Source of the DNA: Bdellovibrionota bacterium
GTDB lineage: Bacteria > Bdellovibrionota_C > UBA2361 > CALJRW01
Reading direction: 5' to 3'
Assembly: GCA_041740355.1 (NCBI GenBank)
Contig: JBGSMD010000015.1
Span: 32,001 to 96,000 of the forward strand
Length of the DNA stretch: 64,000 nt
In this document: one piece after another, positions 36,333 to 58,833 of the stretch
Position numbering within the stretch: position 1 is the first letter of the stretch
How the letters are laid out: each line of letters opens with the position of its first letter
Notes under the pieces: generated by a model
What the model was told of the DNA's origin: nothing
Databases searched by the model: none
What the model saw: only the letters and a program-made list of their open reading frames with translations
Made by a program: the position numbers and the translations under genes

Positions 36333-36477
36333 GGAAGTTATTAAAGTAAGTCTTAGGAATCTTATTCTACAATACTTAACTGGTATACTTATTTTCTTAC
36401 TTTGTCTCTATTTTTATTGGACTTTGCACATTTGCATTAATTCTCAACATATTTTAAATTCGCATTCCAAATGTTTT

Positions 36478-36550
<73 letters not shown>

Positions 36551-36633
36551 TTCGACTCGCGCAAAAGCGCTCGCTCATGGCAAGCCATGTTTACGAGGAG
36601 AATGCCCTGAGCGACCAAAGGGAGTCGAAGGGC
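36551..36633. repeat. Long imperfect palindrome abutting the tRNA 3' end (REP-like, next to GIY-YIG gene)
   Basis: ttcgactc pairs with gagtcgaa; tcgctcatggca pairs with tgccctgagcga. Confidence 0.75.
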
Positions 36634-36642
36634 AATATAAAT

Positions 36643-36909
36643 CTAACTATTCTTTAACCGCCTCAAATCTCCAACAATCAAAGCATCTTTTTTCTTCCTC
36701 GACCATCTTTTAAGTTGCGCTTCTCTCTTTAAGGCTTCTAACTTTGTAGAAAACATTTCAACGTATACAACTTCCCAAGGTTTATAACGAAAGGTATGGT
36801 TTGACTTCCCAGAATTATGCTCCACCATCCTCCTTCGCAAATCTTTTGTTAATCCAACATAGATTTGAGACGGGTCTGAAATACTTCTTAAAATATAAAC
36901 ATAAGTCAC
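36643..36909 (-). CDS. Stand-alone GIY-YIG nuclease (UPF0213/YhbQ-like)
   Basis: YVYIL...IYVG.T.DL.RR..EHN.G, ALKRE.QLK.WSR.KK. Confidence 0.9.
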   Translation of the reverse strand: MTYVYILRSISDPSQIYVGLTKDLRRRMVEHNSGKSNHTFRYKPWEVVYVEMFSTKLEALKREAQLKRWSRKKKDALIVGDLRRLKNS

Positions 36910-37039
36910 CTGAACTTATCGATGAAGAACAAGAATTGTTGTGTATTGTATAACCTTAGATAATTTGTAAAGTTTCCCTACACTTTCTATAGATTCATTT
37001 AATAAAATTATCCTATAATATATCAAAAAGAGACTAGCA

Positions 37040-38596
37040 CTAAAGGGAAAAAGAGGTCAGCGGTTCGAACCCTCTTAGCTCCACTCTTACATTATTGTGA
37101 TCTCCAAAACCCTGAAATACTTTATAACTTAAAGTAGTTAAGACGGTTCCAAATCCACTTTCTTTGCTAAAGGATAGTTTGTCAGCGAAAATTAATTTTA
37201 AGATTAATCTCTTTGCTTTGAAGTCTCCTTTTTCCCATATTTTATCAGGGTTCCCGATATAGTTTGCTATTTTCTTTAGTACGGTTCCAACATCTAATCT
37301 ATTAGTATCGGTTACTTGCAAATCTGCTTCCAATTTAACTTTCTCATTATTTAAATCCAGTATTTTCTTCTCATACATTGAGATTACAGTTGAATTTGAA
37401 CAATTAGTCATTTGGTTAAAGATTAACTCTATCTTACAATCAAGCTCTTTTAGAGATTGTTCTTTAACCTTATTTTCTTTTGAGATTTCGACAATCTTTT
37501 TTTGCCACACCTCTTTCATTACTTCTTGTGCCAAGTCACAAATTCCCTTTTTTGGCTTTAGGAAGCTTAACAGTGAATAGAATTTCTCTTCTAATTCAAA
37601 TCTTTTAATACTTTTACCATAAACAGTGCATTCTTTATTTCGACAATGATAATACGGATGTAAGCAATTTCTCCCCTTACTCCAACTAGCGGTCAAAGAA
37701 GTTCGACAACAGCTACAAGAAATAAAGCCTCTCAAGACAAAATCCTCATTAATATCTGCTCTCTTTGGTAAATGACTTTTTTGCTTTAGCTTTGCTTGGG
37801 CTTTGAAGAATATATTTGGTGACACAATGGCTTGATGTTCCCCTTTTTGCATTTTGATACCCCAATCAGGTTTATGGATAAATCCCGCATAAAGTGGATT
37901 GCTAAGCAATTTTCCAGTGAATTGATGATAGATAGTACCCTTGGAATTCTTGGGGAAATTAGGATTTTTAATTAAGAAATTTTGAACATCTGATATGCTT
38001 TCAAAGCGTCCAGAAACTAGTCCCTCAAAGGCCTCCTTGATTACATCGCTACTTGGTAGAACTGGAACTATTATTTTATGTTTCTTCTCGTTTACAATCC
38101 TCTTATATCCTAATGGAATAGGAAGCACCCAATGACCTTGCTCCATTCTAGCCTGCATTCTACTTTTAACTTGAATTGCATTCATCTCTCGTTGAAACTG
38201 AGCAATTATCACTTGTACACCTTCTGTGAGGTGGTTTATTGGCGTATCCTCAAGTTCTAAAGATACACTCTCTAGCCTACCACTAAATGAGACTATTATG
38301 TTTTTAAATTGATAGTGGAGTACGGTTCGCCTTGCAAGTCTACTAACATCATCTACGATTACAACAACAGAAATTTTTTGCCTATGATAGGAAGCAATGC
38401 AGGATAATAGCTCTTGGAATCCCTTTCTTATCTCTGTTTTTCCAGAGACTGCTCCATCTCGAAAGACACCCACTACTTCATAATTTTTTGATTGTGCATA
38501 TTTCCGACAACTCTGTTCTTGAGAACTAAGACCATTTCCTTCTTGGACTTGTTTTTGGCTCGAAACTCTACAATAAATTATCGCCTTTTGAATCAT
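37040..38596 (-). CDS. Large serine recombinase (resolvase + recombinase + zinc ribbon + coiled coil)
   Basis: Catalytic YCRVSS, DVSRLAR, LLSNPLYAG, HQAIVS, CSCC...YYHC...C zinc ribbon. Confidence 0.95.
   Translation of the reverse strand: MIQKAIIYCRVSSQKQVQEGNGLSSQEQSCRKYAQSKNYEVVGVFRDGAVSGKTEIRKGFQELLSCIASYHRQKISVVVIVDDVSRLARRTVLHYQFKNIIVSFSGRLESVSLELEDTPINHLTEGVQVIIAQFQREMNAIQVKSRMQARMEQGHWVLPIPLGYKRIVNEKKHKIIVPVLPSSDVIKEAFEGLVSGRFESISDVQNFLIKNPNFPKNSKGTIYHQFTGKLLSNPLYAGFIHKPDWGIKMQKGEHQAIVSPNIFFKAQAKLKQKSHLPKRADINEDFVLRGFISCSCCRTSLTASWSKGRNCLHPYYHCRNKECTVYGKSIKRFELEEKFYSLLSFLKPKKGICDLAQEVMKEVWQKKIVEISKENKVKEQSLKELDCKIELIFNQMTNCSNSTVISMYEKKILDLNNEKVKLEADLQVTDTNRLDVGTVLKKIANYIGNPDKIWEKGDFKAKRLILKLIFADKLSFSKESGFGTVLTTLSYKVFQGFGDHNNVRVELRGFEPLTSFSL
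37051..37083 (+). repeat. Duplicated tRNA-Ala 3' half (att-like site)
   Basis: AAGAGGTCAGCGGTTCGA is identical (18 bp) to 36518-36535; 29 of 33 nt match through the terminal ...CCA. Confidence 0.88.
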
Positions 38597-38738
38597 CGTC
38601 TCTATTCTCCGCCTTTAAGTTTGAAAAATAATCATCGATGATCTGTTCAGCAATAGTTTTTAATGAGCATACTAGTAATTCTAGTTCACTTTCATTAATA
38701 CTTAAATTTTTACAATATTTTTCTTTATCCAAAGCCAC
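38568..38738 (-). CDS. Small 56-aa ORF overlapping the recombinase start (candidate directionality factor)
   Basis: Read manually: GTG-ALDKEKYCKNLSINESELELLVCSLKTIAEQIIDDYFSNLKAENRDDDSKGDNLL-TAG; not in the supplied ORF track. Confidence 0.5.
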   Translation of the reverse strand: MALDKEKYCKNLSINESELELLVCSLKTIAEQIIDDYFSNLKAENRDDDSKGDNLL

Positions 38739-38861
38739 GACACTACGCCTTTAAAAGCAATATGCCTGACTTTGGTGCTTCCAATCATCAGTTATCTAAA
38801 TACATTCATTACTAAATAATTTTCTTACTGTGGGATCTCCACTCATAAAAAAATCGTTCTA

Positions 38862-39698
38862 TTAAAATTTTTTTGTTTTAGTAACCTCTAAATAAGTTAA
38901 TACTCCATCATTTAACTTACCTTCAAAACTACCGTGAGAAAAATTAGCAATTGTTTTGGCTAATTTTTGTAATTCTCTCAAATCTTTGGGCTTTTCTGTT
39001 GTCTTAATTTGAGCAATCTCTCCATTCTTTTTTACAATATTAATATCCTTTATCTTTGGATCTCTTAGGTTTGCCAACAGTTCCATTTCAGATGCTTTCA
39101 TTTTAACTGAGTACATTTCAGATTCTGTTTGTGGATAACTATTTATATCAAAGTATTGAGAAACAATATTTCGTAAATCTAGAAGGATAAATGAGGGCTG
39201 AGAATGAGTATTGAAAATGAAATAATAATTAGAAAGACAAGTACGAGAAATTGGCTGACAATACCCATCAGAAAAAACTAATATGTAAACTGGCCTATTT
39301 AACATAGCCAGAGTCACAGTAGCTTCAAACTGGGGAAAATCTGTATTTCCATTTGGAGCAATGTGCATACTTGAATAACTTCTCTGTAGCTTGCTTACTG
39401 ATAGTCCATAAAGCCTTAACTCTGAAACTATATCAATCCAAAGAATATCCAACATTGTGAATGTTCGCCAACCCTTGTCATTAGCACTTTTGTTATTGGC
39501 AATTATTCCACAATCTGCCCAACTTGATAGAACTCGTGCACTCTGTTTTGTACACTTTAAATTTTTAGTTTTACTAGCAAGGATTGATTTGTTTTGTGAG
39601 TGACTAACCTTGGAGTAATAAATTTGAAGTGCATTCTCAAACTCCTCAGATATTGGAATGAAATTTGTTGGATATGAATATTGATTTATTTCGGCCAT
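38862..39698 (-). CDS. MerR-like HTH protein of a mobile element
   Basis: ARVLSSWADCGII...GWRTFT..DILWI.I..ELR.YGLS..KL fits a MerR HTH. Confidence 0.65.
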   Translation of the reverse strand: MAEINQYSYPTNFIPISEEFENALQIYYSKVSHSQNKSILASKTKNLKCTKQSARVLSSWADCGIIANNKSANDKGWRTFTMLDILWIDIVSELRLYGLSVSKLQRSYSSMHIAPNGNTDFPQFEATVTLAMLNRPVYILVFSDGYCQPISRTCLSNYYFIFNTHSQPSFILLDLRNIVSQYFDINSYPQTESEMYSVKMKASEMELLANLRDPKIKDINIVKKNGEIAQIKTTEKPKDLRELQKLAKTIANFSHGSFEGKLNDGVLTYLEVTKTKKF

Positions 39699-39766
39699 TC
39701 CCTTATATTACATACTAGTAATCATTTTGCAATGACTAGTTACTCATATGTAATAGTTTTAATCAA

Positions 39767-40009
39767 CTATTTGTTTTTATTATATTTTTTTAGGTTATTA
39801 ATTAATGTATTTGGGGAAAGGCCTAAGCATTCAGCTATTAGTATAAATTCAATCACATCTAATCTTCTTTCCCCAGATTCAAATTTCGAGACATAGGACT
39901 GGGGTTTGTCTAACTTTTTGGCAAGCTGAGCCTGAGTAATACCCTTCGCCCTTCTTGATTCTGCGAGAAGAGTAATAAAGTTTTTGTATAGTTCCCTATG
40001 CTGTTGCAT
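39767..40009 (-). CDS. XRE-family HTH transcriptional regulator
   Basis: GITQAQLAKKLDKPQSYVSKFESGERRLDVIEF. Confidence 0.92.
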   Translation of the reverse strand: MQQHRELYKNFITLLAESRRAKGITQAQLAKKLDKPQSYVSKFESGERRLDVIEFILIAECLGLSPNTLINNLKKYNKNK

Positions 40010-40072
40010 AGAGAATTATTGACTCAATCACATTAATATCCCAAAATAGGATATTCTATTTTGGGATATAGT

Positions 40073-40579
40073 ATGTTTTGTTCTTCTTGTGGAAATAAAC
40101 TTCTGGATAATAGCCAATTTTGTAGTAAATGTGGCACCGATCTACAGACTACTGATAAGCCAGAACCAAAGAAAAAGCTTCTTCAACAACCCCTTTCTGA
40201 GCTTAAAATGCATAAAGGATTAATTGTTGTTCTTGTTTTTGTAGTATTCTTTATTGTCTTTAAAGCCTGTTCTCCTGGACAACCAGTAGTAATTGATGAA
40301 AATACTAAGATTGAAAATGCTTGCAAAAAGAAAACAATTGAAGCCAAGGTAATGGCAGAAAGCTTTTTAAAAGATAAGCTTGTTTCTCCTAGTACGGCTG
40401 AATTTTCAGGGATTTTAGATACAAAGATTGCCCCAATCGAGGACTGCTCATACAAAGTTATTGGATTTGTTGATTCTCAGAATAGTTTTGGTGGCCAAAT
40501 CAGAAGCAGTTACATTGCCATTGTTCAATACAATTTAGAAAAAGATTCTTGGAACTTAAAAGATAGTTTGATCAAATAG
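40073..40579 (+). CDS. Zinc-ribbon, single-TM prophage-type membrane protein
   Basis: MFCSSCG...FCSKCG, one TM, then LVSPSTAEF and VDSQNSFGG motifs seen in prophage-associated membrane proteins. Confidence 0.75.
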   Translation: MFCSSCGNKLLDNSQFCSKCGTDLQTTDKPEPKKKLLQQPLSELKMHKGLIVVLVFVVFFIVFKACSPGQPVVIDENTKIENACKKKTIEAKVMAESFLKDKLVSPSTAEFSGILDTKIAPIEDCSYKVIGFVDSQNSFGGQIRSSYIAIVQYNLEKDSWNLKDSLIK

Positions 40580-40580
40580 T

Positions 40581-41084
40581 TCAATGCAAATTACGAATTT
40601 TGATCGCTTCTTCTACGGCTGAGGAAAGATATTTTGCTATCCAATCATATCTTTCCTTACTAGTATAACCTTGAGGATCATAACATTTAACTACATCAGA
40701 TAATTTTATTGGGCTTTTTCCACCATCAAAACTAAGGAGCTCAAAGGGATTTTCACCCTTAACTGATACATTTCCTTGTTTATCTTTAAGCCCGTGTATG
40801 TGTATGCCAACTACACCCTTCTTTCTATGCCAAGATTTTTTTATCTCCTCAAGAACCCAAGGCCTTTGGGAAGTTTCTGAACCAATCAAAACGACAGTGC
40901 ACGAACAGCCTAACATTTGATTATCAATCCAATTTGAGATGGAACTCTTGCCTCCTCTTTTTACCTCCTCCCAATCATTATCAAACAGGAGTGCACTTCT
41001 ATCGACTGAGCCAATATTTCGAATCTGTGCCACTCTCCAATTATCGAGATTATAATGAAAACTGTAAAAACATTTCCGCTTCAC
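40581..41084 (-). CDS. TIR-domain protein, Thoeris ThsB-like (DUF1863/MTH538)
   Basis: KRKCFYSFHY..DNWR, CTVVLIG.ET..RPWV.EEI (putative catalytic Glu), KGVVGIHIH. GTG start at 41084 follows AGGAAG. Confidence 0.88.
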   Translation of the reverse strand: MKRKCFYSFHYNLDNWRVAQIRNIGSVDRSALLFDNDWEEVKRGGKSSISNWIDNQMLGCSCTVVLIGSETSQRPWVLEEIKKSWHRKKGVVGIHIHGLKDKQGNVSVKGENPFELLSFDGGKSPIKLSDVVKCYDPQGYTSKERYDWIAKYLSSAVEEAIKIRNLH

Positions 41085-41094
41085 GCCATTCTTC

Positions 41095-41487
41095 CTATGT
41101 ACTAAATATAATTGCAATTAGACCAATGGACACAATCAAGATGCCGTGAAAGATCATTAATGTCTTTGAGAAGATAGAAGCAAATAGATGAGTTTTTAAA
41201 TCACTGGCATTCATACAAAAATCAATTTCATCGGGGTTCTTTGTTCTTACACGATTATAATGTTTGCGATACGCCCGCTCTAATGAAAGGAAATAACCAT
41301 CAAGCCCCCAAAAGACAATGGCAGGAATCAAGGCAAGTAATACAATTGAATTACTTGCACCCTTTTCCATTAATGCAATTAATGCCGAAATGATTACAAC
41401 ACTCCAACCTTTCAGTAAAAATGAATTGGTAGAAAGACGATTTACTACTCCTTGAATAAATTCTAAATGTTTAATTTTACTATCCAT
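41095..41487 (-). CDS. Small 3-TM membrane protein (HLEFIQ...NSFLLKGW family), candidate effector
   Basis: HLEFIQGVVNRLSTNSFLLKGWSV, FWGLDGYFL..ER.YR..Y; three hydrophobic helices; 10 bp upstream of the TIR gene. Confidence 0.8.
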   Translation of the reverse strand: MDSKIKHLEFIQGVVNRLSTNSFLLKGWSVVIISALIALMEKGASNSIVLLALIPAIVFWGLDGYFLSLERAYRKHYNRVRTKNPDEIDFCMNASDLKTHLFASIFSKTLMIFHGILIVSIGLIAIIFST

Positions 41488-41489
41488 AG

Positions 41490-42014
41490 CTAGTACTCAG
41501 CATTTAAAATTTCAAGTATTTCCTCTTTTGTGAATTCCATCGCCGTATTTTTAAATTTATGTAATCTTCTGTAAGTATCAACCATTGCTTTATATTTTTC
41601 TCTCATCTCACTGTGACTATTTAAATCAACATTTGGAGTCTGGCCAAACAAAGCTTTGTATTTCTTTTGAGTATTGATTACGAATTCGACAAAGCGGTAA
41701 TGATCCGTCTCGTTATTACCATCATAACCTTGAAATTTTGCATTGTAATGTTTTGTTACTTCCTGATCAGCAGGATTCTCCCTAATATGATTGTCAATAA
41801 CTTGAAATACTGTAAGTGTATCAAAAACCTCTTTAGAAACATCAAGGCTTAGGGTAGGTAATAACTCATAACCAACTGATTCGTAATAGACCTCATACCC
41901 ATCTGATAATATTTCAATATCTTGGTCATATTTTTCGGAATTCTTAGGATCTAGTGTTTTAAGAATTAAAAATTGGTTAATTAGTATTTTACGCTCTTGA
42001 TCTGAATAGGACAT
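41490..42014 (-). CDS. YfbU family protein
   Basis: ERKILINQF.IL..LDP, EILSDGYE..Y, FQGYDGNNE, NSH..M..KY..M. Confidence 0.85.
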   Translation of the reverse strand: MSYSDQERKILINQFLILKTLDPKNSEKYDQDIEILSDGYEVYYESVGYELLPTLSLDVSKEVFDTLTVFQVIDNHIRENPADQEVTKHYNAKFQGYDGNNETDHYRFVEFVINTQKKYKALFGQTPNVDLNSHSEMREKYKAMVDTYRRLHKFKNTAMEFTKEEILEILNAEY

Positions 42015-42346
42015 TTGATAATTTTTTAAAAAACAAAAGATGAATTTTTGAAGTAATCATCATCTTGAACATTTTCAAGTCCTTCAAATCATTAATTTTA
42101 AGAATATTGTTAAAAGTTTTGAATTTAGTAAATTTTGATTACTATCGGAAACTAGCATTAGATTAGATGTAGCGGTGTCAGGGCACTGACCTTAGAGATT
42201 TTACACCCCCCTCTCTTTAAATCTGGTAAATTAACTATTTAAATATAGAAAATCCTAGTTTATTTTTGAATTTTTGGAGATTAATCATAATATTTGTGAT
42301 AATCACTAGATTTGAATTTTTAAAAATCACCCCCGTACCCAACATT

Positions 42347-43180
42347 ATGTGCTTCTTTACTCCAGTTACAACTATCTTATCTAACTCTGATTTAATCGAA
42401 ATAATTGCCATATTTGTTGGAATTATTATCGTTATTTACCAAGTTGATAAGGGTTTTAAAGACAACCGTACTCTCCAAAATCAACAGTTTCAAAAACAAA
42501 TTCAAATTGATCTACATAAGATCCTAGGTGAGTTAATTTCCCTTTCCTCCAGTAGTTTATCTGAACTTAATGCCAAACTTTGGTTTCTACCTGTCAATAT
42601 TAAGAAATATGCGAATGATATCAAGGGCAATCAAAATGCTTTATTGCCCGATTTAAGCCCACATCAACTTAATGAACTTTATTATGAAGCAATCAGAACA
42701 ACTAGCCGTGTTGCGGATCTACTTGATGGGCATCAACTTACTAACAGTGCATATCCTGTCTTTAAAAAAATAATTTATATCAAAATAGATGAGGTAAGAA
42801 AATTTTACGCTAAATATTCCTCTGCTATCTTTGACTTTCTTCCATTTGATAAGACTATAGCGACGCCCACTGGAGAACTTGAGTCCATCAAGATAGTAAA
42901 AAACCACGCTAACGAGGTGCAATGCGAAAACATTGAGAAATTAACTAATGAGTTTATCCACCTAGTATTTGATTTACTAGGATACTTGTCGGATATTCAA
43001 ATTGAATCACAAAATATTGCACTTGGTGACCTTTTTGATCAATCCAAACTTGAATCTAGAATACCTAGTGACCCTTCGATATTAGTTCTCAAATCGGATC
43101 CTAAAACTTTACAGGAACTCAGTGACTATATAACTAAAGTCCAAGAAGAGCGAAAAGTAAAAAAGAACTCCCACACTTAA
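42347..43180 (+). CDS. Hypothetical protein with N-terminal TM and helical domain (island cargo)
   Basis: Single TM (IIAIFVGIIIVIY) followed by a Gln-rich helix; start uncertain (42266 or 42347). Confidence 0.6.
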   Translation: MCFFTPVTTILSNSDLIEIIAIFVGIIIVIYQVDKGFKDNRTLQNQQFQKQIQIDLHKILGELISLSSSSLSELNAKLWFLPVNIKKYANDIKGNQNALLPDLSPHQLNELYYEAIRTTSRVADLLDGHQLTNSAYPVFKKIIYIKIDEVRKFYAKYSSAIFDFLPFDKTIATPTGELESIKIVKNHANEVQCENIEKLTNEFIHLVFDLLGYLSDIQIESQNIALGDLFDQSKLESRIPSDPSILVLKSDPKTLQELSDYITKVQEERKVKKNSHT

Positions 43181-43376
43181 TTCGCCCGCATATTCTTTCA
43201 CTATCTTAGTGTTTAATAATGTTATGGTGTGATAATTTACTAATCTTTAATCGGCTAACTATATATAATCTCAGGCTTATTTTCTTTGTCCATAATATTT
43301 TCATAACTAATAATTAGATTATAAAATTCTAAAATCTCATTTTCGTATTGATTCCAACTTTCTAAGCTATAGTCCA

Positions 43377-44270: not shown

Positions 44271-44593
44271 ATTAGTCCTTCAGTAAATATTGAGAGTCCA
44301 AAAACAATTTATCCTATTTAATTTTTACTAAATTTATTTTTTGTCATCACTAGATACTCCCTGAGAATGTCAAATACATACAAGTGGAGCAAGTATAAAA
44401 AGCTTTTTACGAATTGTAATCAAATTGATAACAAGGATTTTAGCTTTGAATAAATTCAAACATTTCCTGAGTATCTTTAGATAGATTTATATTATTTTAG
44501 AGTTGAAATAAAGAAATTATCTTAGGACAGGATTAATCAGATTTTCCTAAATTAAATAATAATCTTTAGTCCAAGCATCTTGATCTAAATCAA

Positions 44594-47500
44594 TTACTTA
44601 TTACTTATATGGTTATCCCACATATCTCTGACGAAAAATTCAATACCGTTACCGTCCCCTGAGTAGGGTCCATTTAAGTTTGGAGCAGGTCTATACTTTG
44701 GATAATACCTTTCGATAAAATATCTAAAATATGCCTCATGATTAACTTGGGCCCTTCCTCCCATCAATAAGATAGTTGCGACAGTTCCCGCGCCGCCTGC
44801 GCCATTAATAAATCTATAACCACTTCCACCTTCCCAAGCTGAAGAATTATCAGGATGTCCCGACCAACCATACTCCGGAAGTCCAATCATCTCATCAGTA
44901 TATGGAACACGACCTGGAGATCGAGCAGTATCAACGTCTTTTTTACTTATGAAAAAATGAAAAGTTAGATCTTGAAATGGAGACCCATTTTTTGCCTTGT
45001 TGTTAAGATCTGAATCATTTAGCAATCTTCCAGCGATGAACAATGGAAGTAATCTTCCAAGATTATGCCCACCATTAGGTGCCCAAACCATACCGTTTTG
45101 TAATAGTCCGTAGATGTCTATGCCCCACTGAACCATGTGAATAGCTAATTTTTCTTTTTGTTTATTAGATAAATTAGAGTTCAACATTAATCCAGCACCG
45201 CCCACTATCTGACCTACCTCACGCCCATAAGTTCGACGAGTATAACCACCAGACTTAGTTTCAGCCCATGCCGCTTTAAAGTTAGAATTAACATGCCCAG
45301 CCGCCACTTCAATCAATGGCCGTTTCGTTGCTTTCTCCAACCAAGACATTGAAGGTGCATTTGAGGGAACAGGAATAGTAAGGCTACGCAATGCTGAATA
45401 ATGAAGTTCTGAAACTTTCCAATTAGGTTTTATAGTTTTATCAGAGCCTGCATATGGCGGACGGAAACTACCAGCTGCTGGAGCAGAACCAAGAACTGTC
45501 AGAACAGCAGTTTCTTTAAACCAGGTCTTCTCTGCCTCTGGATCTAAGACATAGTTTCCATCTTTATTTACATGACCTTTCCAAGTATGAGGATTATTCA
45601 TGGTAGAATACACAGAACTTCCTGATGCTACTTTAATTGGTAACTGTAATGATATATTTTTGGTTAGATCATATTTTGGTAGATTTTCAGGATTTTTATC
45701 ATCTCCATTCAGATAAAGTCCCTGAGTTTCTGCCGGCATAAAATTTATCATAGATCCATTGCTGTAGTTGACCCCACCATCTCCAGTTTTTGGATCAATG
45801 TTGGTTATTTTTACTTTATTCTCATTCACTCCCTGTATTGGAGTCACCCAGTAGTCACCGTTCGCGAAGCGTCCGCAAGGATAAGCTCTGTCAAAATACC
45901 ATGTAATTCCGTACTGTGTAATTTTATCTGTAGTACCTGAGGGACAATAGTTCACTCCGCCATCAGGCTCACAGAAATCAAATTGATAAGTGCCACTCCA
46001 GTTTGTAAAGTTACCATTACTACAGCTTCTAGTTTGCTGCTCTGATTGACATGACTGCCCAGTAGGAACCTCAGATGTCAGATTCATAATCCTTCTCTCA
46101 ATTGTACCATTTGGCACAAGACCACATGATCCAACAGGAACTCTAGAAGCAGAACAGTTAGTGCTTGTTCCACCATCATTTCCATTACAGCTCCAAGAAA
46201 CTGATTGTCCAGCCGCAGGAAAATTTACTGAGACTGGCGATGCTGTCCCTTTGGCACAGAAGTTTCCACTAAATTGATTTTCTGTAGTTAAATATACTTT
46301 AGCATTTGTTCCACACGCTCCATTAATGGCACTGTTTGCTTGAGCAGTAAAAGAAATCAATGCCTGAGCACTGTAACTAGTGCCTACACTGTAATCAAAG
46401 CTACTTTTTTTTGCATGCACCCAAAATTCATATTTATGAGCATCTGTAATTGGAAACTTAAAGCTTGGACTTGAAGCTGAGTAATAAGTATCCCGAGATG
46501 TCGGATAGGCATCCACATAAACATAGTGTCCATTGGCACTGTAGCCATTATAAATAGCAGACGGCTGTGTTAAATCTTTAACTCGGATTAAATATCCAGC
46601 GGCTCCCTCAACAGCCGACCATTTAATTTCTACTTTCTGATCAAGATCAGATTTGTATGAAAACGACTGAATCACAGGAGCGGCAATTCCTCCAGCAATA
46701 CTAAAATTGGCTACTACCTCTTTGGTTCTGTTGACCTGAATCGAACAACTGAGCCCAGAGCAAGCTCCACCCCAACCTGAGAAAACCCAACCACTTGCGG
46801 GCTGAGCAATCAAGTTGACTGTAGTTGTCGAAGTAAAAGTTTCAGAACAATCAGCACCGCAATTAATACCTGTCCCACTAACTGTTCCATTTCCCTGTTT
46901 CTTGATATTCAAGGTTAAATTAGTTCCATTACAACCTTCTGCATAATATCCATTGCAACTTGCCGGTGGAGTTGGAGTCGCAGGGGGTGGTAATGTTGGG
47001 GATGATGTAGGAGTTAAAGTTGGAGTCGGAGTTGGAGTTGGAGAAGCATGGGCGTCAAAAATCACATCACTAACTTCGCTAAAGGTACTATTATCATTGC
47101 GATCATAAGTAGCTTTTCTAGCTCTGACCCAGAATCTATATTTTTTTGCGTCAGAAACGCTTAAATCGTAAGTAGTGTTTGTATAATTTTCTTCATATAG
47201 AAGATCTAGATCCTTGGCAGGATTAGTCTGATCAACAGCACCAATTAAATAACCGCTAGCTCCAGTTACATTTGCCCATTCAACCCTAATCTTTCCATTT
47301 ACAATTCTAGTGTTTGGATTTTTAATATTTGGAGCAGCTAGCCGACCTGTTTGAGTAAAATTAGCTACAACTGTCTTGTTAGAATTTAATATGATACTAC
47401 AGCTATTACCACTACAATCTCCGCCCCAACCAGAAAATAGATATCCTTCACTGGCAAATGCACTTAATACAACGCTCGTTCCCTTTACATAACTCTTGCT

Positions 47501-48295
47501 GCATTCAGTACCACAGCTAATCCCATTTCCACTTACTTTTCCAGATCCCTTTTTACTAACAGTGAGCTTATAGCTTAAAATATTGGTATCGGGTGTTGGT
47601 AGTGGCTTCACTGGCGATTCGGTATTTACCGAAGTATCTACGACTCTAAACTTAAAACTAATCTCTCTACCAGGGAAACCTAAACCTTTATCCTTGGTGT
47701 ATGGAGTTAATTTAATTTCATATTCTCCAATTGGTAATTTTCCGAGCACTACTTCATATGGAGACGCATCTAAGAGATAAACTCCTTTATTCAGTTCAAT
47801 TTTTATACTACCAATCTTAATCGGATACTTAACTACTAACTTTAAATCATTGCGATTAACGGAAACCGAGGTCCCTTCGCTTAGCACTTTAATAATTTGA
47901 CTATTAGCTACATCAACTAAACTGAAGATGCTTTCATTTTTATTTTCTGCTTCGACCTTAGCAGTTTTACATAATTGCTCTATTAAGTTCTTCTCTTTCT
48001 GAATCTTTTTGGCCTGCTTTACGTTGCCTTTGTTCTTTTGTATTTCAACTCTCTTGGTATATTGTTTACTTAAAGAATTAAACACATATCCTATTTCTTT
48101 TTCTTGTAAATTTCCAAAATGGATTTTTTCATTAATTTCATAACAATCATAATTCTTATCTTTAAAAATGATTGAGTACGTTTCATTTAGGACTTTTTCG
48201 TTGCTAATTACATAGTCCCTGCTAGGTATGCCTATCATTGCAAAGACATAGACAAAAAATAGTATAGATAAGATTAATTTTCTTGAATTTTTCAA
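44594..48295 (-). CDS. Large secreted multidomain protein: two divergent InlB-B/Flg_new-like repeats, two FN3-like domains, PT linker, Cys-rich modules and a C-terminal domain
   Basis: Signal sequence; repeated LTV.K.G.G.V.G.GI.CG..C...FSGWGG.C; W..V.GA.GY FN3-like strands; ITQYGITWYFD...GRFANGDYWV domain start. Confidence 0.8.
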   Translation of the reverse strand: MKNSRKLILSILFFVYVFAMIGIPSRDYVISNEKVLNETYSIIFKDKNYDCYEINEKIHFGNLQEKEIGYVFNSLSKQYTKRVEIQKNKGNVKQAKKIQKEKNLIEQLCKTAKVEAENKNESIFSLVDVANSQIIKVLSEGTSVSVNRNDLKLVVKYPIKIGSIKIELNKGVYLLDASPYEVVLGKLPIGEYEIKLTPYTKDKGLGFPGREISFKFRVVDTSVNTESPVKPLPTPDTNILSYKLTVSKKGSGKVSGNGISCGTECSKSYVKGTSVVLSAFASEGYLFSGWGGDCSGNSCSIILNSNKTVVANFTQTGRLAAPNIKNPNTRIVNGKIRVEWANVTGASGYLIGAVDQTNPAKDLDLLYEENYTNTTYDLSVSDAKKYRFWVRARKATYDRNDNSTFSEVSDVIFDAHASPTPTPTPTLTPTSSPTLPPPATPTPPASCNGYYAEGCNGTNLTLNIKKQGNGTVSGTGINCGADCSETFTSTTTVNLIAQPASGWVFSGWGGACSGLSCSIQVNRTKEVVANFSIAGGIAAPVIQSFSYKSDLDQKVEIKWSAVEGAAGYLIRVKDLTQPSAIYNGYSANGHYVYVDAYPTSRDTYYSASSPSFKFPITDAHKYEFWVHAKKSSFDYSVGTSYSAQALISFTAQANSAINGACGTNAKVYLTTENQFSGNFCAKGTASPVSVNFPAAGQSVSWSCNGNDGGTSTNCSASRVPVGSCGLVPNGTIERRIMNLTSEVPTGQSCQSEQQTRSCSNGNFTNWSGTYQFDFCEPDGGVNYCPSGTTDKITQYGITWYFDRAYPCGRFANGDYWVTPIQGVNENKVKITNIDPKTGDGGVNYSNGSMINFMPAETQGLYLNGDDKNPENLPKYDLTKNISLQLPIKVASGSSVYSTMNNPHTWKGHVNKDGNYVLDPEAEKTWFKETAVLTVLGSAPAAGSFRPPYAGSDKTIKPNWKVSELHYSALRSLTIPVPSNAPSMSWLEKATKRPLIEVAAGHVNSNFKAAWAETKSGGYTRRTYGREVGQIVGGAGLMLNSNLSNKQKEKLAIHMVQWGIDIYGLLQNGMVWAPNGGHNLGRLLPLFIAGRLLNDSDLNNKAKNGSPFQDLTFHFFISKKDVDTARSPGRVPYTDEMIGLPEYGWSGHPDNSSAWEGGSGYRFINGAGGAGTVATILLMGGRAQVNHEAYFRYFIERYYPKYRPAPNLNGPYSGDGNGIEFFVRDMWDNHISNK

Positions 48296-58519: not shown

Positions 58520-58606
58520 GAAGTCAAGAGTCGTAGTCGTGCGTTTTGGAGGTAGCACTAATATACTAAAAACGATTAAAATTTACGGAGCTGCTTTGAA
58601 AAAACT

Positions 58607-58635
58607 TCCACCTGCGTAAAGCTTCGCCGGACAAG
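58607..58635 (+). repeat. REP-like repeat family B
   Basis: tccacctgcgtaaagcttcgccggacaag. Confidence 0.6.
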
Positions 58636-58833
58636 TACTGCTTTTTTCGTACATCAGGTTTTAGTATATTTGTTTTCCCTAGTATTAAACCTAACTTTAT
58701 AAGGGTTAATACCTTTGTGCCCCCCCTTGGGTCGCACCAAGTGCTTTGAACTTGATATAATATATTTTTCATATATCAATCCACACAAAGAAACTTCTAC
58801 CATAAAATTTAGTTTCATCTTATAAGTACAATT

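What the first reader, a model, noticed from the sequence alone, without database searches (positions are those of the whole stretch)
40581..42014. Candidate new anti-phage system: YfbU + small 3-TM protein + ThsB-like TIR, with no ThsA
Seen: three co-oriented genes separated by only 2 bp and 10 bp, inside a serine-recombinase island at a tRNA. The TIR keeps the FxSFHY and WVxxEI (putative catalytic Glu) motifs. Established: Thoeris ThsB TIRs make NAD-derived signals read by effectors such as SIR2-STALD, TM-Macro or caspase proteins. None of these is present here. Inference: the 130-aa membrane protein is a minimal signal-gated pore effector, and YfbU is a sensor, regulator or second effector. 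This would be a Thoeris-like architecture I do not recognise as characterised.
Basis: partly seen in the sequence, partly recalled or inferred. Interest (0 to 1): 0.85.

Follow-up and report, generated by a model that had tools for sequence, protein, structure and literature searches.

The report
Thoeris-like TIR pair beside YfbU gene
The three genes are real, but they look like two separate anti-phage modules packed together: a TIR enzyme with its small membrane partner (a pair already listed as a defence candidate) and a stand-alone YfbU gene of a kind already shown to block phages.

Summary
Three minus-strand genes lie at 40581-42014, 2 bp and 10 bp apart, in a strain-specific serine-recombinase island beside tRNA-Ala.

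The three-gene interpretation holds only in part.
- The 130-aa three-helix membrane protein and the ThsB-type TIR are a conserved pair. A TIR gene accompanies the membrane gene in 87 of 104 loci from many phyla.
- PADLOC already lists this pair as the unpublished candidate PDC-M50 (A 3e-45, B 1e-57).
- YfbU is not part of that pair: 0 of 104 loci have it. Elsewhere YfbU sits alone on plasmids. A single-gene YfbU system, Kamadhenu, is already validated.
- The membrane protein has no Pfam family. It shows weak but specific reciprocal similarity to DUF2270, which is ThsF, the three-helix effector of type V Thoeris.

My reading is a Thoeris-like signalling pair in which the TIR makes a signal that opens a membrane effector. 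A Kamadhenu-like gene is packed upstream and is probably co-transcribed. The finding is a new member of a known kind, of modest interest. Nothing here is tested experimentally.

The parts
40581..41084 (-). ThsB-type TIR protein, 167 aa from the GTG at 41084. It is the predicted NAD-derived signal synthase. The putative catalytic Glu is residue 80 (WVLEEI).
   Evidence: Pfam ThsB_TIR 6e-24. PADLOC ThsB1 PDLC00433 2.7e-64 and PDC-M50B 1.4e-57. PDB 8wcf_A 5.6e-34; 9b7d ThsB1 and 6lhy 2.8e-20. Glu80 is kept in 60 of 61 membrane-gene-linked TIRs.
41095..41487 (-). 130-aa three-helix membrane protein of family PDC-M50A. It is the predicted signal-gated membrane effector and may be a compact distant relative of DUF2270/ThsF.
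   Evidence: PADLOC PDC-M50A 3.2e-45. No Pfam match even at E<=10. 2814 clusters of relatives of about 132 aa. Model pLDDT 88.4 with helices 2-41, 53-82 and 108-129. Hydropathy and charge. DUF2270 comparisons.
41490..42014 (-). YfbU-domain protein, 174 aa. It is probably a separate Kamadhenu-like single-gene module, 2 bp upstream of the membrane gene.
   Evidence: Pfam YfbU 3e-35 over 1-166/166. NCBIfam NF003936 3e-32. PDB 4lr3/1wpb 3e-10. No PADLOC match. Absent from 104 related loci.
42015..42265 (-). AT-rich 251-bp region upstream of YfbU. It is the only sizeable intergenic space that could hold a promoter for the three genes.
   Evidence: Read directly. Promoter-like match 42123-42095 (9 of 12). 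That scan was not above chance overall (25 found, 18.0 +/- 4.9 expected).
37040..38596 (-). Large serine recombinase of the island.
   Evidence: Resolvase 5e-23, plus weaker Recombinase and Zn_ribbon_recom matches. A 67%-identical gene sits at the same tRNA in the same-genus genome G001.
36477..36551 (+). tRNA-Ala(GGC), the left edge of the variable region.
   Evidence: ARAGORN. Synteny with G001 runs up to this gene.
37051..37086 (.). 36-nt copy (86%) of the tRNA 3' end, lying inside the 3' end of the recombinase gene. It is a likely attachment-site remnant.
   Evidence: the repeat finder family D2.

Best explanation
Two anti-phage modules sit head to tail in one small operon on a strain-specific integrative island.

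**Module 1 (41487..40581): a Thoeris-like two-gene signalling system.**
- The ThsB-type TIR senses infection and makes an NAD-derived nucleotide signal. A cADPR isomer is likely. 3'cADPR is my first guess, held at low confidence.
- The 130-aa protein sits in the inner membrane with its N-terminus inside. It probably forms a ring of subunits.
- Its nearly invariant cytoplasmic N-terminal helix, and the Arg/Tyr-rich stretch after helix 2 (E70, Y73, R74, Y77, R81), would bind the signal.
- Binding would open or disrupt the membrane, aborting the infection.
- This is the PADLOC candidate PDC-M50. Its effector is probably a shortened, divergent relative of ThsF (DUF2270) of type V Thoeris.

**Module 2 (42014..41490): a YfbU-domain gene of the Kamadhenu kind.** It is a stand-alone abortive-infection gene that happens to be packed 2 bp upstream and is probably transcribed with module 1.

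**Shown here:** gene structure, family matches, conserved membrane-TIR linkage, absence of YfbU from that linkage, the conserved Glu, and the topology.

**Inferred:** defence function, signal identity, oligomeric pore, and the independence of YfbU.
For: **The pair is a catalogued candidate.** PADLOC gives PDC-M50A 3.2e-45, PDC-M50B 1.4e-57 and ThsB1 2.7e-64.

**Membrane-TIR linkage.**
- In 80 loci from species-representative genomes, phmmer with the window TIR finds a TIR in 56. In 47 of these it lies directly downstream on the same strand.
- Pfam adds 8 more loci with TIR_2 or ThsB_TIR neighbours, giving 64 of 80.
- In 24 metagenome loci the count is 20 by phmmer plus 3 by Pfam, giving 23 of 24.
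- Several loci have TIR genes on both sides of the membrane gene. One search scanned 78 upstream ORFs and found a TIR domain in 9 (L002, L003, L005, L009, L019, L022, L042, L051, L075). Multiple TIRs in one locus are a known Thoeris trait.
- Other neighbours are restriction-modification methylases, MmeI-like enzymes, SNF2/NOV_C helicases, Abi_C and integrases. These are defence-island surroundings.

**The TIR.** Glu80 is kept in 60 of 61 linked TIRs. It aligns with the Glu of the WVRYEI stretch in the solved ThsB 9b7d.

**The membrane protein.**
- It is under strong constraint: 41 invariant columns and 65% mean column identity across 30 sequences. The few that carry a source name are Chlorobaculum, Gemmatimonadota and Pseudobdellovibrionaceae.
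- Positive charges lie on the N-terminus (4 K/R) and on residues 71-107 (7 K/R).

**ThsF/DUF2270 relationship.**
- Reciprocal HMM searches: the membrane-family HMM against 150 DUF2270 proteins gives 22 hits at E<0.1. The DUF2270 HMM against 202 membrane-family proteins gives 57. Reversed and shuffled controls give 0 in every case.
- The DUF2270 HMM against all 4632 ORFs of the 104 loci ranks membrane-family ORFs 1 to 14, 19 of the top 20 and 35 of the top 40. The base rate is 107 of 4632.
- Of 5027 PADLOC models, PDC-M50A is the only one hit by more than one of 41 DUF2270 proteins (2 hits, best 1.7e-4).
- Every alignment covers the same stretch: W-x-V in helix 1, then FL-x-E-x-R-YR..Y..VR.

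**Type V precedent.** Type V Thoeris is a TIR plus a three-helix DUF2270 effector driven by 3'cADPR. It is validated in bioRxiv 10.64898/2025.12.03.692087 (section 6 read).

**YfbU is separate.**
- 0 of 104 loci by phmmer.
- 0 of 78 and 0 of 24 upstream ORFs by Pfam.
- A 5-sequence YfbU profile against 4632 ORFs gives a best E of 7.4.
- All 4 plasmid contexts I inspected, of 176 plasmid records with a match, have no annotated TIR gene. The YfbU gene lies beside Abi, recombinase, IS or DUF2971 genes.
- Kamadhenu is a 180-aa YfbU-only protein that gives abortive-infection defence on its own (PMC11381338, Table 1 and section 23 passages).
- Two defence systems sharing one operon has a precedent in Pycsar plus type IV Thoeris (PMC13069673, passages).
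Against: **Against membership of DUF2270.**
- PF10028 does not match the window protein at E<=10.
- It matches only 2 of 30 family members, best E 0.15. DUF3278 matches 8 of 30 (best 0.0037) and DUF3623 matches 7 of 30 (best 0.0015).
- PF10028 finds nothing in 5 of 5 genomes that carry the membrane family.
- hhalign probability is only 6.5% and 16%.
- The protein-atlas nearest named clusters are a DUF3278-like cluster (0.94) and RipA/8xMP (0.85), not DUF2270.
- The one DUF2270 seed I used lies in a housekeeping context, beside malate dehydrogenase and BacA, not beside a TIR.

**Against YfbU being independent.**
- The 2-bp gap leaves no room for a separate promoter for the membrane and TIR genes, so the three are probably expressed together.
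- GC content is uniform across the three genes at 0.316, 0.333 and 0.375. This gives no sign of separate origin.
- This YfbU is very divergent. It has no word-sharing relative among 5.8 billion proteins, so its own natural contexts could not be sampled.
- I inspected only 4 of 176 plasmid contexts.

**General gaps.**
- 17 of 104 loci show no TIR gene. Some are truncated or have a broken membrane gene, but not all.
- No experiment exists for PDC-M50 by that name (0 papers).
- The signal cannot be read from the TIR family. According to the preprint (section 5), one TIR cluster serves types I, IV and V.
Confidence: 0.6

Rival explanations
1. One reading: one integrated three-gene system. YfbU would act with the TIR pathway as sensor, regulator or second effector.
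For: - The gaps are 2 bp and 10 bp, all three genes share a strand, and the only sizeable upstream region lies in front of YfbU.
- GC content is uniform across the three genes.
- Some Thoeris operons do carry ancillary genes such as Cap2/Cap3 or Cap9-11 (bioRxiv 10.64898/2025.12.03.692087, section 9).
- YfbU has been tied to cell death (PMC13064643, passage).
Against: - YfbU is absent from 104 of 104 loci that carry the membrane family.
- The pair is conserved without it.
- YfbU has no annotated TIR neighbour in the 4 plasmid contexts inspected.
- The word YfbU does not occur in the Thoeris survey text.
- YfbU works alone as Kamadhenu (PMC11381338).
Confidence: 0.12
2. There is no diffusible signal. 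The TIR is itself the NAD-depleting effector. The membrane protein is its sensor, anchor or regulator, or a second toxin.
For: - The authors of the Thoeris survey state that in unverified configurations the TIR may be the effector (bioRxiv 10.64898/2025.12.03.692087, Limitations).
- The membrane protein has no recognisable ligand-binding domain.
Against: - The TIR is of the ThsB1 type (2.7e-64), whose solved relatives are signal synthases (9b7d is named a cyclic ADP-D-ribose synthase).
- Loci with two or three TIRs around one membrane gene fit a many-sensors, one-effector layout.
- The similarity to ThsF points to an effector role.
Confidence: 0.13
3. It is not a phage-defence unit. The genes would serve the island itself, for example as an addiction or stabilisation module, or have another membrane function.
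For: - The location is inside an integrative element beside a recombinase.
- There is no experimental evidence for PDC-M50.
Against: - The neighbours in other genomes are mostly restriction-modification, Abi, helicase and extra TIR genes.
- The TIR family and the catalytic Glu are those of Thoeris.
Confidence: 0.05

Closest known systems
PADLOC candidate system PDC-M50 (A+B)
   Same: Both proteins match its models over their full length (A 3.2e-45, B 1.4e-57), and the genes are adjacent in the order A then B.
   Different: PDC-M50 is an unpublished candidate. A search for the name found no paper. PDC-x systems are described as unpublished in PMC11811056 (passages). The window adds a YfbU gene 2 bp upstream, which is not part of PDC-M50.
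Type V Thoeris (ThsB + ThsF/DUF2270), bioRxiv 10.64898/2025.12.03.692087
   Same: It is a two-gene TIR plus small effector with three membrane helices. It has charged cytoplasmic stretches. There is weak but specific reciprocal sequence similarity over helix 1, helix 2 and the following Arg/Tyr motif.
   Different: The effector is 130 aa against a 184-position DUF2270 profile. It does not reach Pfam PF10028. Ring assembly and 3'cADPR dependence are untested. I could not see the preprint's Figure 1C or Table S1, so I cannot say whether this effector is among its 29 putative types.
Type I Thoeris (ThsA SIR2-SLOG + ThsB)
   Same: The TIR is of the ThsB1 type (PADLOC 2.7e-64). It matches solved ThsB structures 9b7d and 6lhy at 2.8e-20.
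   Different: No ThsA is present. No island protein hits a ThsA model. The genome's only SIR2_2 gene is on another contig and hits generic SIR2 models.
Kamadhenu (single-gene YfbU defence, Lactococcus plasmid; PMC11381338)
   Same: The protein consists of one full YfbU domain and has a similar length (174 against 180 aa). It lies on a mobile element.
   Different: I had no Kamadhenu sequence to compare. The window protein is a very divergent YfbU: at most 37% identity to any plasmid copy and no word-sharing relative. Here it is fused into an operon with a TIR pair.
Pycsar + type IV Thoeris hybrid operon (PMC13069673)
   Same: Two self-sufficient defence modules share one operon. This is a precedent for tight packing without the modules being a single machine.
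   Different: [quoted passage not shown] It was shown to be synergistic. The YfbU pairing here was seen once.

Membership tests
PADLOC PDC-M50 | A protein matching a PDC-M50A model | tested here: met
   PDLC04686 3.2e-45, covering 1-127 of 130 aa.
PADLOC PDC-M50 | An adjacent protein matching the PDC-M50B model | tested here: met
   PDLC04688 1.4e-57. The gene starts 10 bp downstream.
Thoeris (TIR signalling defence) | ThsB-type TIR with the conserved catalytic Glu | tested here: met
   PF08937 6e-24. Glu80 aligns with the Glu of ThsB 9b7d and is kept in 60 of 61 linked TIRs. That this Glu is catalytic is recalled knowledge.
Thoeris (TIR signalling defence) | Conserved operon partner that can act as effector | tested here: met
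   A TIR gene lies beside the membrane gene in 87 of 104 loci.
Thoeris (TIR signalling defence) | Infection-dependent NAD-derived signal that activates the effector, and phage protection | not testable with these tools
   This needs plaque assays, LC-MS and toxicity assays.
Type V Thoeris effector ThsF (DUF2270, PF10028) | Match to PF10028 above its cut-off | tested here: not met
   No match at E<=10 for the window protein. 2 of 30 relatives match, best E 0.15. 0 of 5 genomes that carry the membrane family match.
Type V Thoeris effector ThsF (DUF2270, PF10028) | Three membrane-spanning helices | tested here: met
   Hydropathy segments at about 22-41, 43-69 and 102-130. Model helices at 2-41, 53-82 and 108-129.
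Type V Thoeris effector ThsF (DUF2270, PF10028) | Distant homology at profile level | tested here: inconclusive
   hhalign gives 6.5% and 16%. Against that, reciprocal HMM hits stand far above reversed and shuffled controls, the DUF2270 HMM ranks the family at places 1-14 of 4632 ORFs, and there is a PADLOC cross-hit.
Type V Thoeris effector ThsF (DUF2270, PF10028) | Ring homo-oligomer with charged pockets between subunits | not tested
   No usable oligomer model was obtained.
Type I Thoeris | ThsA (SIR2-SLOG) next to ThsB | tested here: not met
   None of the 9 island proteins hits a ThsA model. The only SIR2_2 gene is on contig C51 and has no ThsA hit.
Kamadhenu | Protein made of a single full YfbU domain, about 180 aa | tested here: met
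   174 aa; PF03887 covers 1-166 of 166 positions.
Kamadhenu | Sequence relationship to the validated Kamadhenu protein | not tested
   No Kamadhenu sequence was on hand. Lactococcus is not among the 10 organism names listed for the plasmid matches (7 more are unnamed).
Kamadhenu | Protects on its own by abortive infection | not testable with these tools
   Indirect evidence only: YfbU has no annotated TIR partner in 4 of 4 inspected plasmid contexts.

The most novel reading that the evidence does not exclude
In this lineage a Kamadhenu-type YfbU gene has been welded 2 bp upstream of a ThsF-like/ThsB pair, and the three work as one hybrid system. YfbU would either respond to the TIR signal as a second, cytoplasmic effector or feed an infection cue to the TIR. 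That would make it the first link between the YfbU death pathway and TIR signalling.
Probability: 0.1. Interest if true: 0.6.

Novelty: new member of a known kind. Interest (0 to 1): 0.3.

Why it matters
- **An untested, widespread effector.** The membrane family is large: 2814 clusters at 90% identity, about 132 aa each, with no Pfam family. It is very strongly conserved, yet I found no experiment on it. If it is a minimal ThsF-like effector, it is among the smallest signal-gated membrane effectors. It would be a convenient object for working out how a cADPR-type signal opens a membrane.
- **An annotation gap.** Pfam-based Thoeris typing would miss this pair.
- **The YfbU junction.** It matters mainly as an example that very tight gene spacing in defence islands does not show that genes form one system.

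Tried and rejected
- **Homo-oligomer prediction.** Four copies of the membrane protein with alignment A1 gave no verdict (score 0.23, mark 0.42). This is evidence neither way.
- **Fold searches with the membrane-protein model.** Foldseek against the PDB gave nothing at E<=0.001. VIA-align wide gave only generic helical-hairpin matches, with best Z 9.7, under the noise level stated for helical proteins.
- **Protein atlas.** The 30 nearest clusters are unnamed. Named leads were a DUF3278-like cluster (0.94) and RipA/8xMP (0.85). I did not follow these further.
- **Fused forms.** 9 longer relatives against 2814 of normal length. One (P0272) has only a partial ThsB_TIR match (profile 40-99) and may be a frameshift artefact. 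I do not use it as evidence.
- **Promoter and terminator scan.** Not above chance: 25 promoter-like sites against 18.0 +/- 4.9 expected, and no terminator between the genes.
- **GC content per gene.** Uniform, so uninformative about origin.
- **YfbU relatives.**
  - No word-sharing relative.
  - 0 of 40 relatives, and 1 of 124 genomes of the phylum (the window's own), carry YfbU.
  - Its natural partners could therefore not be surveyed beyond plasmids.
  - Phages gave 2 partial matches.
- **Sequencing runs.** No RNA holder is listed. Run X2 holds scattered identical pieces at low depth, and X3 holds only the tRNA.
- **Right border of the island.** Synteny with G001 does not resume on the same contig, so the border is unresolved.
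- **Literature searches that led nowhere.** 'PDC-M50' gave 0 papers. '8WCF' gave no relevant paper. The '8xMP / RipA' search was swamped by unrelated words.
Full report
**1. What is there**

Three ORFs lie on the minus strand:
- 42014..41490, 174 aa;
- 41487..41095, 130 aa;
- 41117..40581.

Reading the DNA shows the spacing. The first gene ends in TAG. Two bases later comes the ATG of the second gene. That gene ends in TAG. Ten bases later comes a GTG at 41084, where the family matches to the third protein begin. The third protein is therefore 167 aa.

Family matches:
- The first protein is a complete YfbU domain: PF03887, 1-166 of 166 positions, E 3e-35; NCBIfam NF003936, 3e-32; PDB 4lr3 and 1wpb, about 3e-10.
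- The third protein is a ThsB-type TIR: PF08937, 6e-24.
- The second protein has no Pfam match even at E<=10 and no NCBIfam match.

The second protein has three hydrophobic segments. Positive charge is concentrated on the N-terminal 26 residues (4 K/R) and on residues 71-107 (7 K/R). This places the N-terminus and the loop after helix 2 in the cytoplasm. An AlphaFold2 model built from a 30-sequence alignment is confident (pLDDT 88.4), with long helices at 2-41, 53-82 and 108-129.

**2. Surroundings**

- tRNA-Ala(GGC) lies at 36477-36551.
- A 36-nt copy of its 3' end (86% identical) lies at 37051-37086, inside the end of a 518-aa large serine recombinase gene. A GIY-YIG gene lies between the two copies.
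- The same-genus genome G001 is syntenic up to the tRNA and has a 67%-identical recombinase there. It has nothing matching window 38208-43256.
- The right flank of the window maps to other G001 contigs, so the right border of the island is open.
- YfbU was not found in 40 relatives with the window protein. With the Pfam family it was found in 1 of 124 genomes of the phylum, which is the window's own genome.
- The genome has one ThsB_TIR gene and no TIR_2 gene.
- Its one SIR2_2 gene is on another contig. That gene hits generic SIR2 models, not ThsA.

So the cassette is strain-specific cargo of an integrative element, and there is no ThsA.

**3. Membrane protein and TIR are a conserved pair**

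PADLOC recognises both proteins as the two parts of candidate system PDC-M50 (A 3.2e-45, B 1.4e-57). The TIR also matches ThsB1 at 2.7e-64. YfbU matches nothing in PADLOC.

The membrane family is large and tightly conserved:
- 2814 clusters at E<=0.001, nearly all about 132 aa, none with a Pfam domain.
- 41 invariant columns and 65% mean column identity in 30 sequences. The few with a source name are Chlorobaculum, Gemmatimonadota and Pseudobdellovibrionaceae.

I fetched 80 loci from species-representative genomes (the best 80 of 142 confirmed) and 24 from metagenomes.

| Locus set | TIR by phmmer with the window TIR | Added by Pfam | Total with a TIR gene |
|---|---|---|---|
| 80 genome loci | 56, of which 47 directly downstream on the same strand | 8 (L017, L021, L022, L031, L070 downstream; L003, L042, L051 upstream) | 64 of 80 |
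| 24 metagenome loci | 20 | 3 (L109, L110, L113 upstream) | 23 of 24 |

Together 87 of 104 loci have a TIR gene. Of the 17 without one, several are cut by a contig end (L046, L107) or have a split or truncated membrane gene (L049, L059, L073). The others have unexplained neighbours.

Several loci have TIR genes on both sides of the membrane gene, for example L005, L009, L019, L022, L031 and L075. Other upstream neighbours are restriction-modification methylases, MmeI-like enzymes, SNF2/NOV_C helicases, Abi_C, integrases, PIN and NYN genes. These are defence-island surroundings.

**4. YfbU is not part of that pair**

- phmmer with the window YfbU: 0 of 80 and 0 of 24 loci.
- Pfam on the upstream ORFs: 0 of 78. 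In one search, 0 of the 24 upstream ORFs scanned, from 18 of the 24 metagenome loci.
- A 5-sequence YfbU profile against all 4632 ORFs of the 104 loci: best E 7.4.

The window YfbU is very divergent. It has no word-sharing relative among 5.8 billion proteins. tblastn finds YfbU genes on 176 plasmids, all below 60% identity, 141 of them in Enterococcus.

I inspected four of those contexts: Photobacterium, Acinetobacter, Acidisarcina and Enterococcus. In each, no TIR gene is annotated nearby. The YfbU gene lies beside Abi, recombinase, IS or DUF2971 genes. In Photobacterium an unannotated 160-aa gene with no Pfam match follows it.

A 180-aa protein consisting only of a YfbU domain, Kamadhenu, confers abortive-infection defence alone from a lactococcal plasmid (PMC11381338, Table 1 and section 23 passages; PMC13064643, passage).

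**5. Relation to known Thoeris types**

The preprint 10.64898/2025.12.03.692087 (outline and sections 5-10 and 14 read; figures and tables not seen) extends Thoeris to eleven validated types and 29 putative effector types. Type V pairs a TIR with ThsF, a three-helix DUF2270 protein. ThsF is modelled there as a ring with charged pockets and is triggered by 3'cADPR.

By Pfam, the window protein is not DUF2270:
- PF10028 gives no match for the window protein.
- It matches 2 of 30 relatives at best E 0.15. DUF3278 matches 8 of 30 and DUF3623 matches 7 of 30.
- It finds nothing in 5 of 5 genomes that carry the membrane family.

I then built a DUF2270 set from a genome hit and compared profiles.
- hhalign gives low probability: 6.5%, and 16% with larger alignments. 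It always aligns the same stretch: W-x-V in helix 1, then FL-x-E-x-R-YR..Y..VR after helix 2. This pairs invariant residues of both families.
- Reciprocal hmmsearch without filters gives 22 of 150 and 57 of 202 hits at E<0.1. Reversed and shuffled controls give 0 in all four runs.
- The DUF2270 profile, run against all 4632 ORFs of the 104 loci, puts membrane-family ORFs at ranks 1-14, at 19 of the top 20 and at 35 of the top 40. The base rate is 107 of 4632.
- Of 5027 PADLOC models, PDC-M50A is the only one hit by more than one of 41 DUF2270 proteins (2 hits, best 1.7e-4).

I read this as probable distant kinship, about 60% likely. It is not proven. The seed DUF2270 lies in a housekeeping context, and the atlas's nearest named clusters are other small membrane families.

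**6. The TIR**

The closest solved chains are 8wcf_A (5.6e-34) and the ThsB structures 9b7d and 6lhy (2.8e-20). Glu80 in WVLEEI aligns with the Glu of WVRYEI in ThsB. It is kept in 60 of 61 membrane-linked TIRs. That this Glu is the catalytic residue is recalled knowledge, not a call.

The preprint reports one TIR cluster serving types I, IV and V (section 5). The signal therefore cannot be read from the TIR family. 3'cADPR is a guess that rests on the ThsF-like effector.

**7. Mechanism proposed**

1. Infection activates the TIR.
2. The TIR converts NAD+ into a nucleotide signal.
3. The signal binds the cytoplasmic face of an oligomer of the 130-aa protein. The likely contacts are the near-invariant helix at residues 7-26 and the E70/Y73/R74/Y77/R81 stretch.
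4. The membrane is breached and the infected cell stops supporting the phage.

Gene structure, linkage, the Glu and the topology are shown here. All the rest is inferred by analogy.

YfbU most likely acts on its own as a Kamadhenu-like gene. The 2-bp junction and the lack of room for a separate promoter suggest that it shares a transcript with the pair. Two complete systems sharing one operon has a precedent in Pycsar plus type IV Thoeris, where the two were synergistic (PMC13069673, passages).

**8. Novelty and verdict**

- The pair is a member of an already catalogued but unpublished candidate. PDC-x systems are called unpublished in PMC11811056. The name PDC-M50 occurs in 0 papers. Other PDC candidates, but not M50, were validated in 10.1101/2024.09.26.614923.
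- Its architecture is that of validated TIR-plus-membrane-effector Thoeris types.
- YfbU as a defence gene is also known.
- What is particular to this window is the fusion of the two modules into one operon, seen once.

I rate it a new member of a known kind, with interest 0.3. The supplements of the Thoeris preprint, which I could not see, may already list this effector family.

Noticed in passing
window 39767-40579: An 80-aa Xre-type HTH gene (40009..39767, minus strand) is divergent from a 172-aa zinc-ribbon protein with one hydrophobic segment (40061..40579, plus strand). A 15-bp-stem palindrome at 40036-40069 lies across the short gap and the start of the plus-strand gene, like an operator. 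The pair may be another small module of the island. The zinc-ribbon gene ends 1 bp from the convergent TIR gene.
   Followed up: partly
window 36518-36553 and 37051-37086: The 3' end of tRNA-Ala is repeated (86%) inside the last codons of the serine recombinase gene, with a GIY-YIG gene (36909..36643) between the copies. Contigs in runs X1 and X2 join 36502 to 37056 through 20 other letters. X2's depth for that form (24.8) is much higher than its depth of at most about 5 over the rest of the island outside the tRNA bin. This looks like another tRNA gene, not an excision product.
   Followed up: partly
G000 contig C51, locus L119 1-3489: The same genome has a second defence cluster: a 406-aa SIR2 protein (generic PADLOC SIR2 models), a type I restriction enzyme piece and a ZorA-like MotA/ExbB protein.
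   Followed up: partly
L066 2865-3914 and L071 2828-3508: In two loci where no TIR gene was found, the gene upstream of the membrane-family gene encodes a Macro domain (L066) or a SLOG domain (L071). Both are nucleotide-signal-binding domains known from other Thoeris effectors.
   Followed up: no
window 44300-44361 and 58553-58762: Short stretches match many contigs of the same-genus genome G001 at 70-87% identity. The second stretch matches more than 25 places. This is a dispersed repeat of unknown kind.
   Followed up: no
window 42266-43180 and 38862-39698: Two island genes have no match above cut-off in Pfam (the 278-aa protein has two weak sub-threshold hits, to a herpesvirus tegument domain and MerR HTH) and none in PADLOC or NCBIfam. 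One is a 304-aa protein with a hydrophobic N-terminus (plus strand). The other is a 278-aa protein (minus strand).
   Followed up: partly
window 44594-48295: A 1233-aa protein has internally repeated modules and a Pro/Thr-rich linker. Its GC content (0.386) is higher than that of the island genes.
   Followed up: no
L084 4498-4980: On a Photobacterium plasmid the YfbU gene is followed, with a 1-bp overlap, by a 160-aa gene with no Pfam match. It may be a partner specific to that YfbU lineage.
   Followed up: partly
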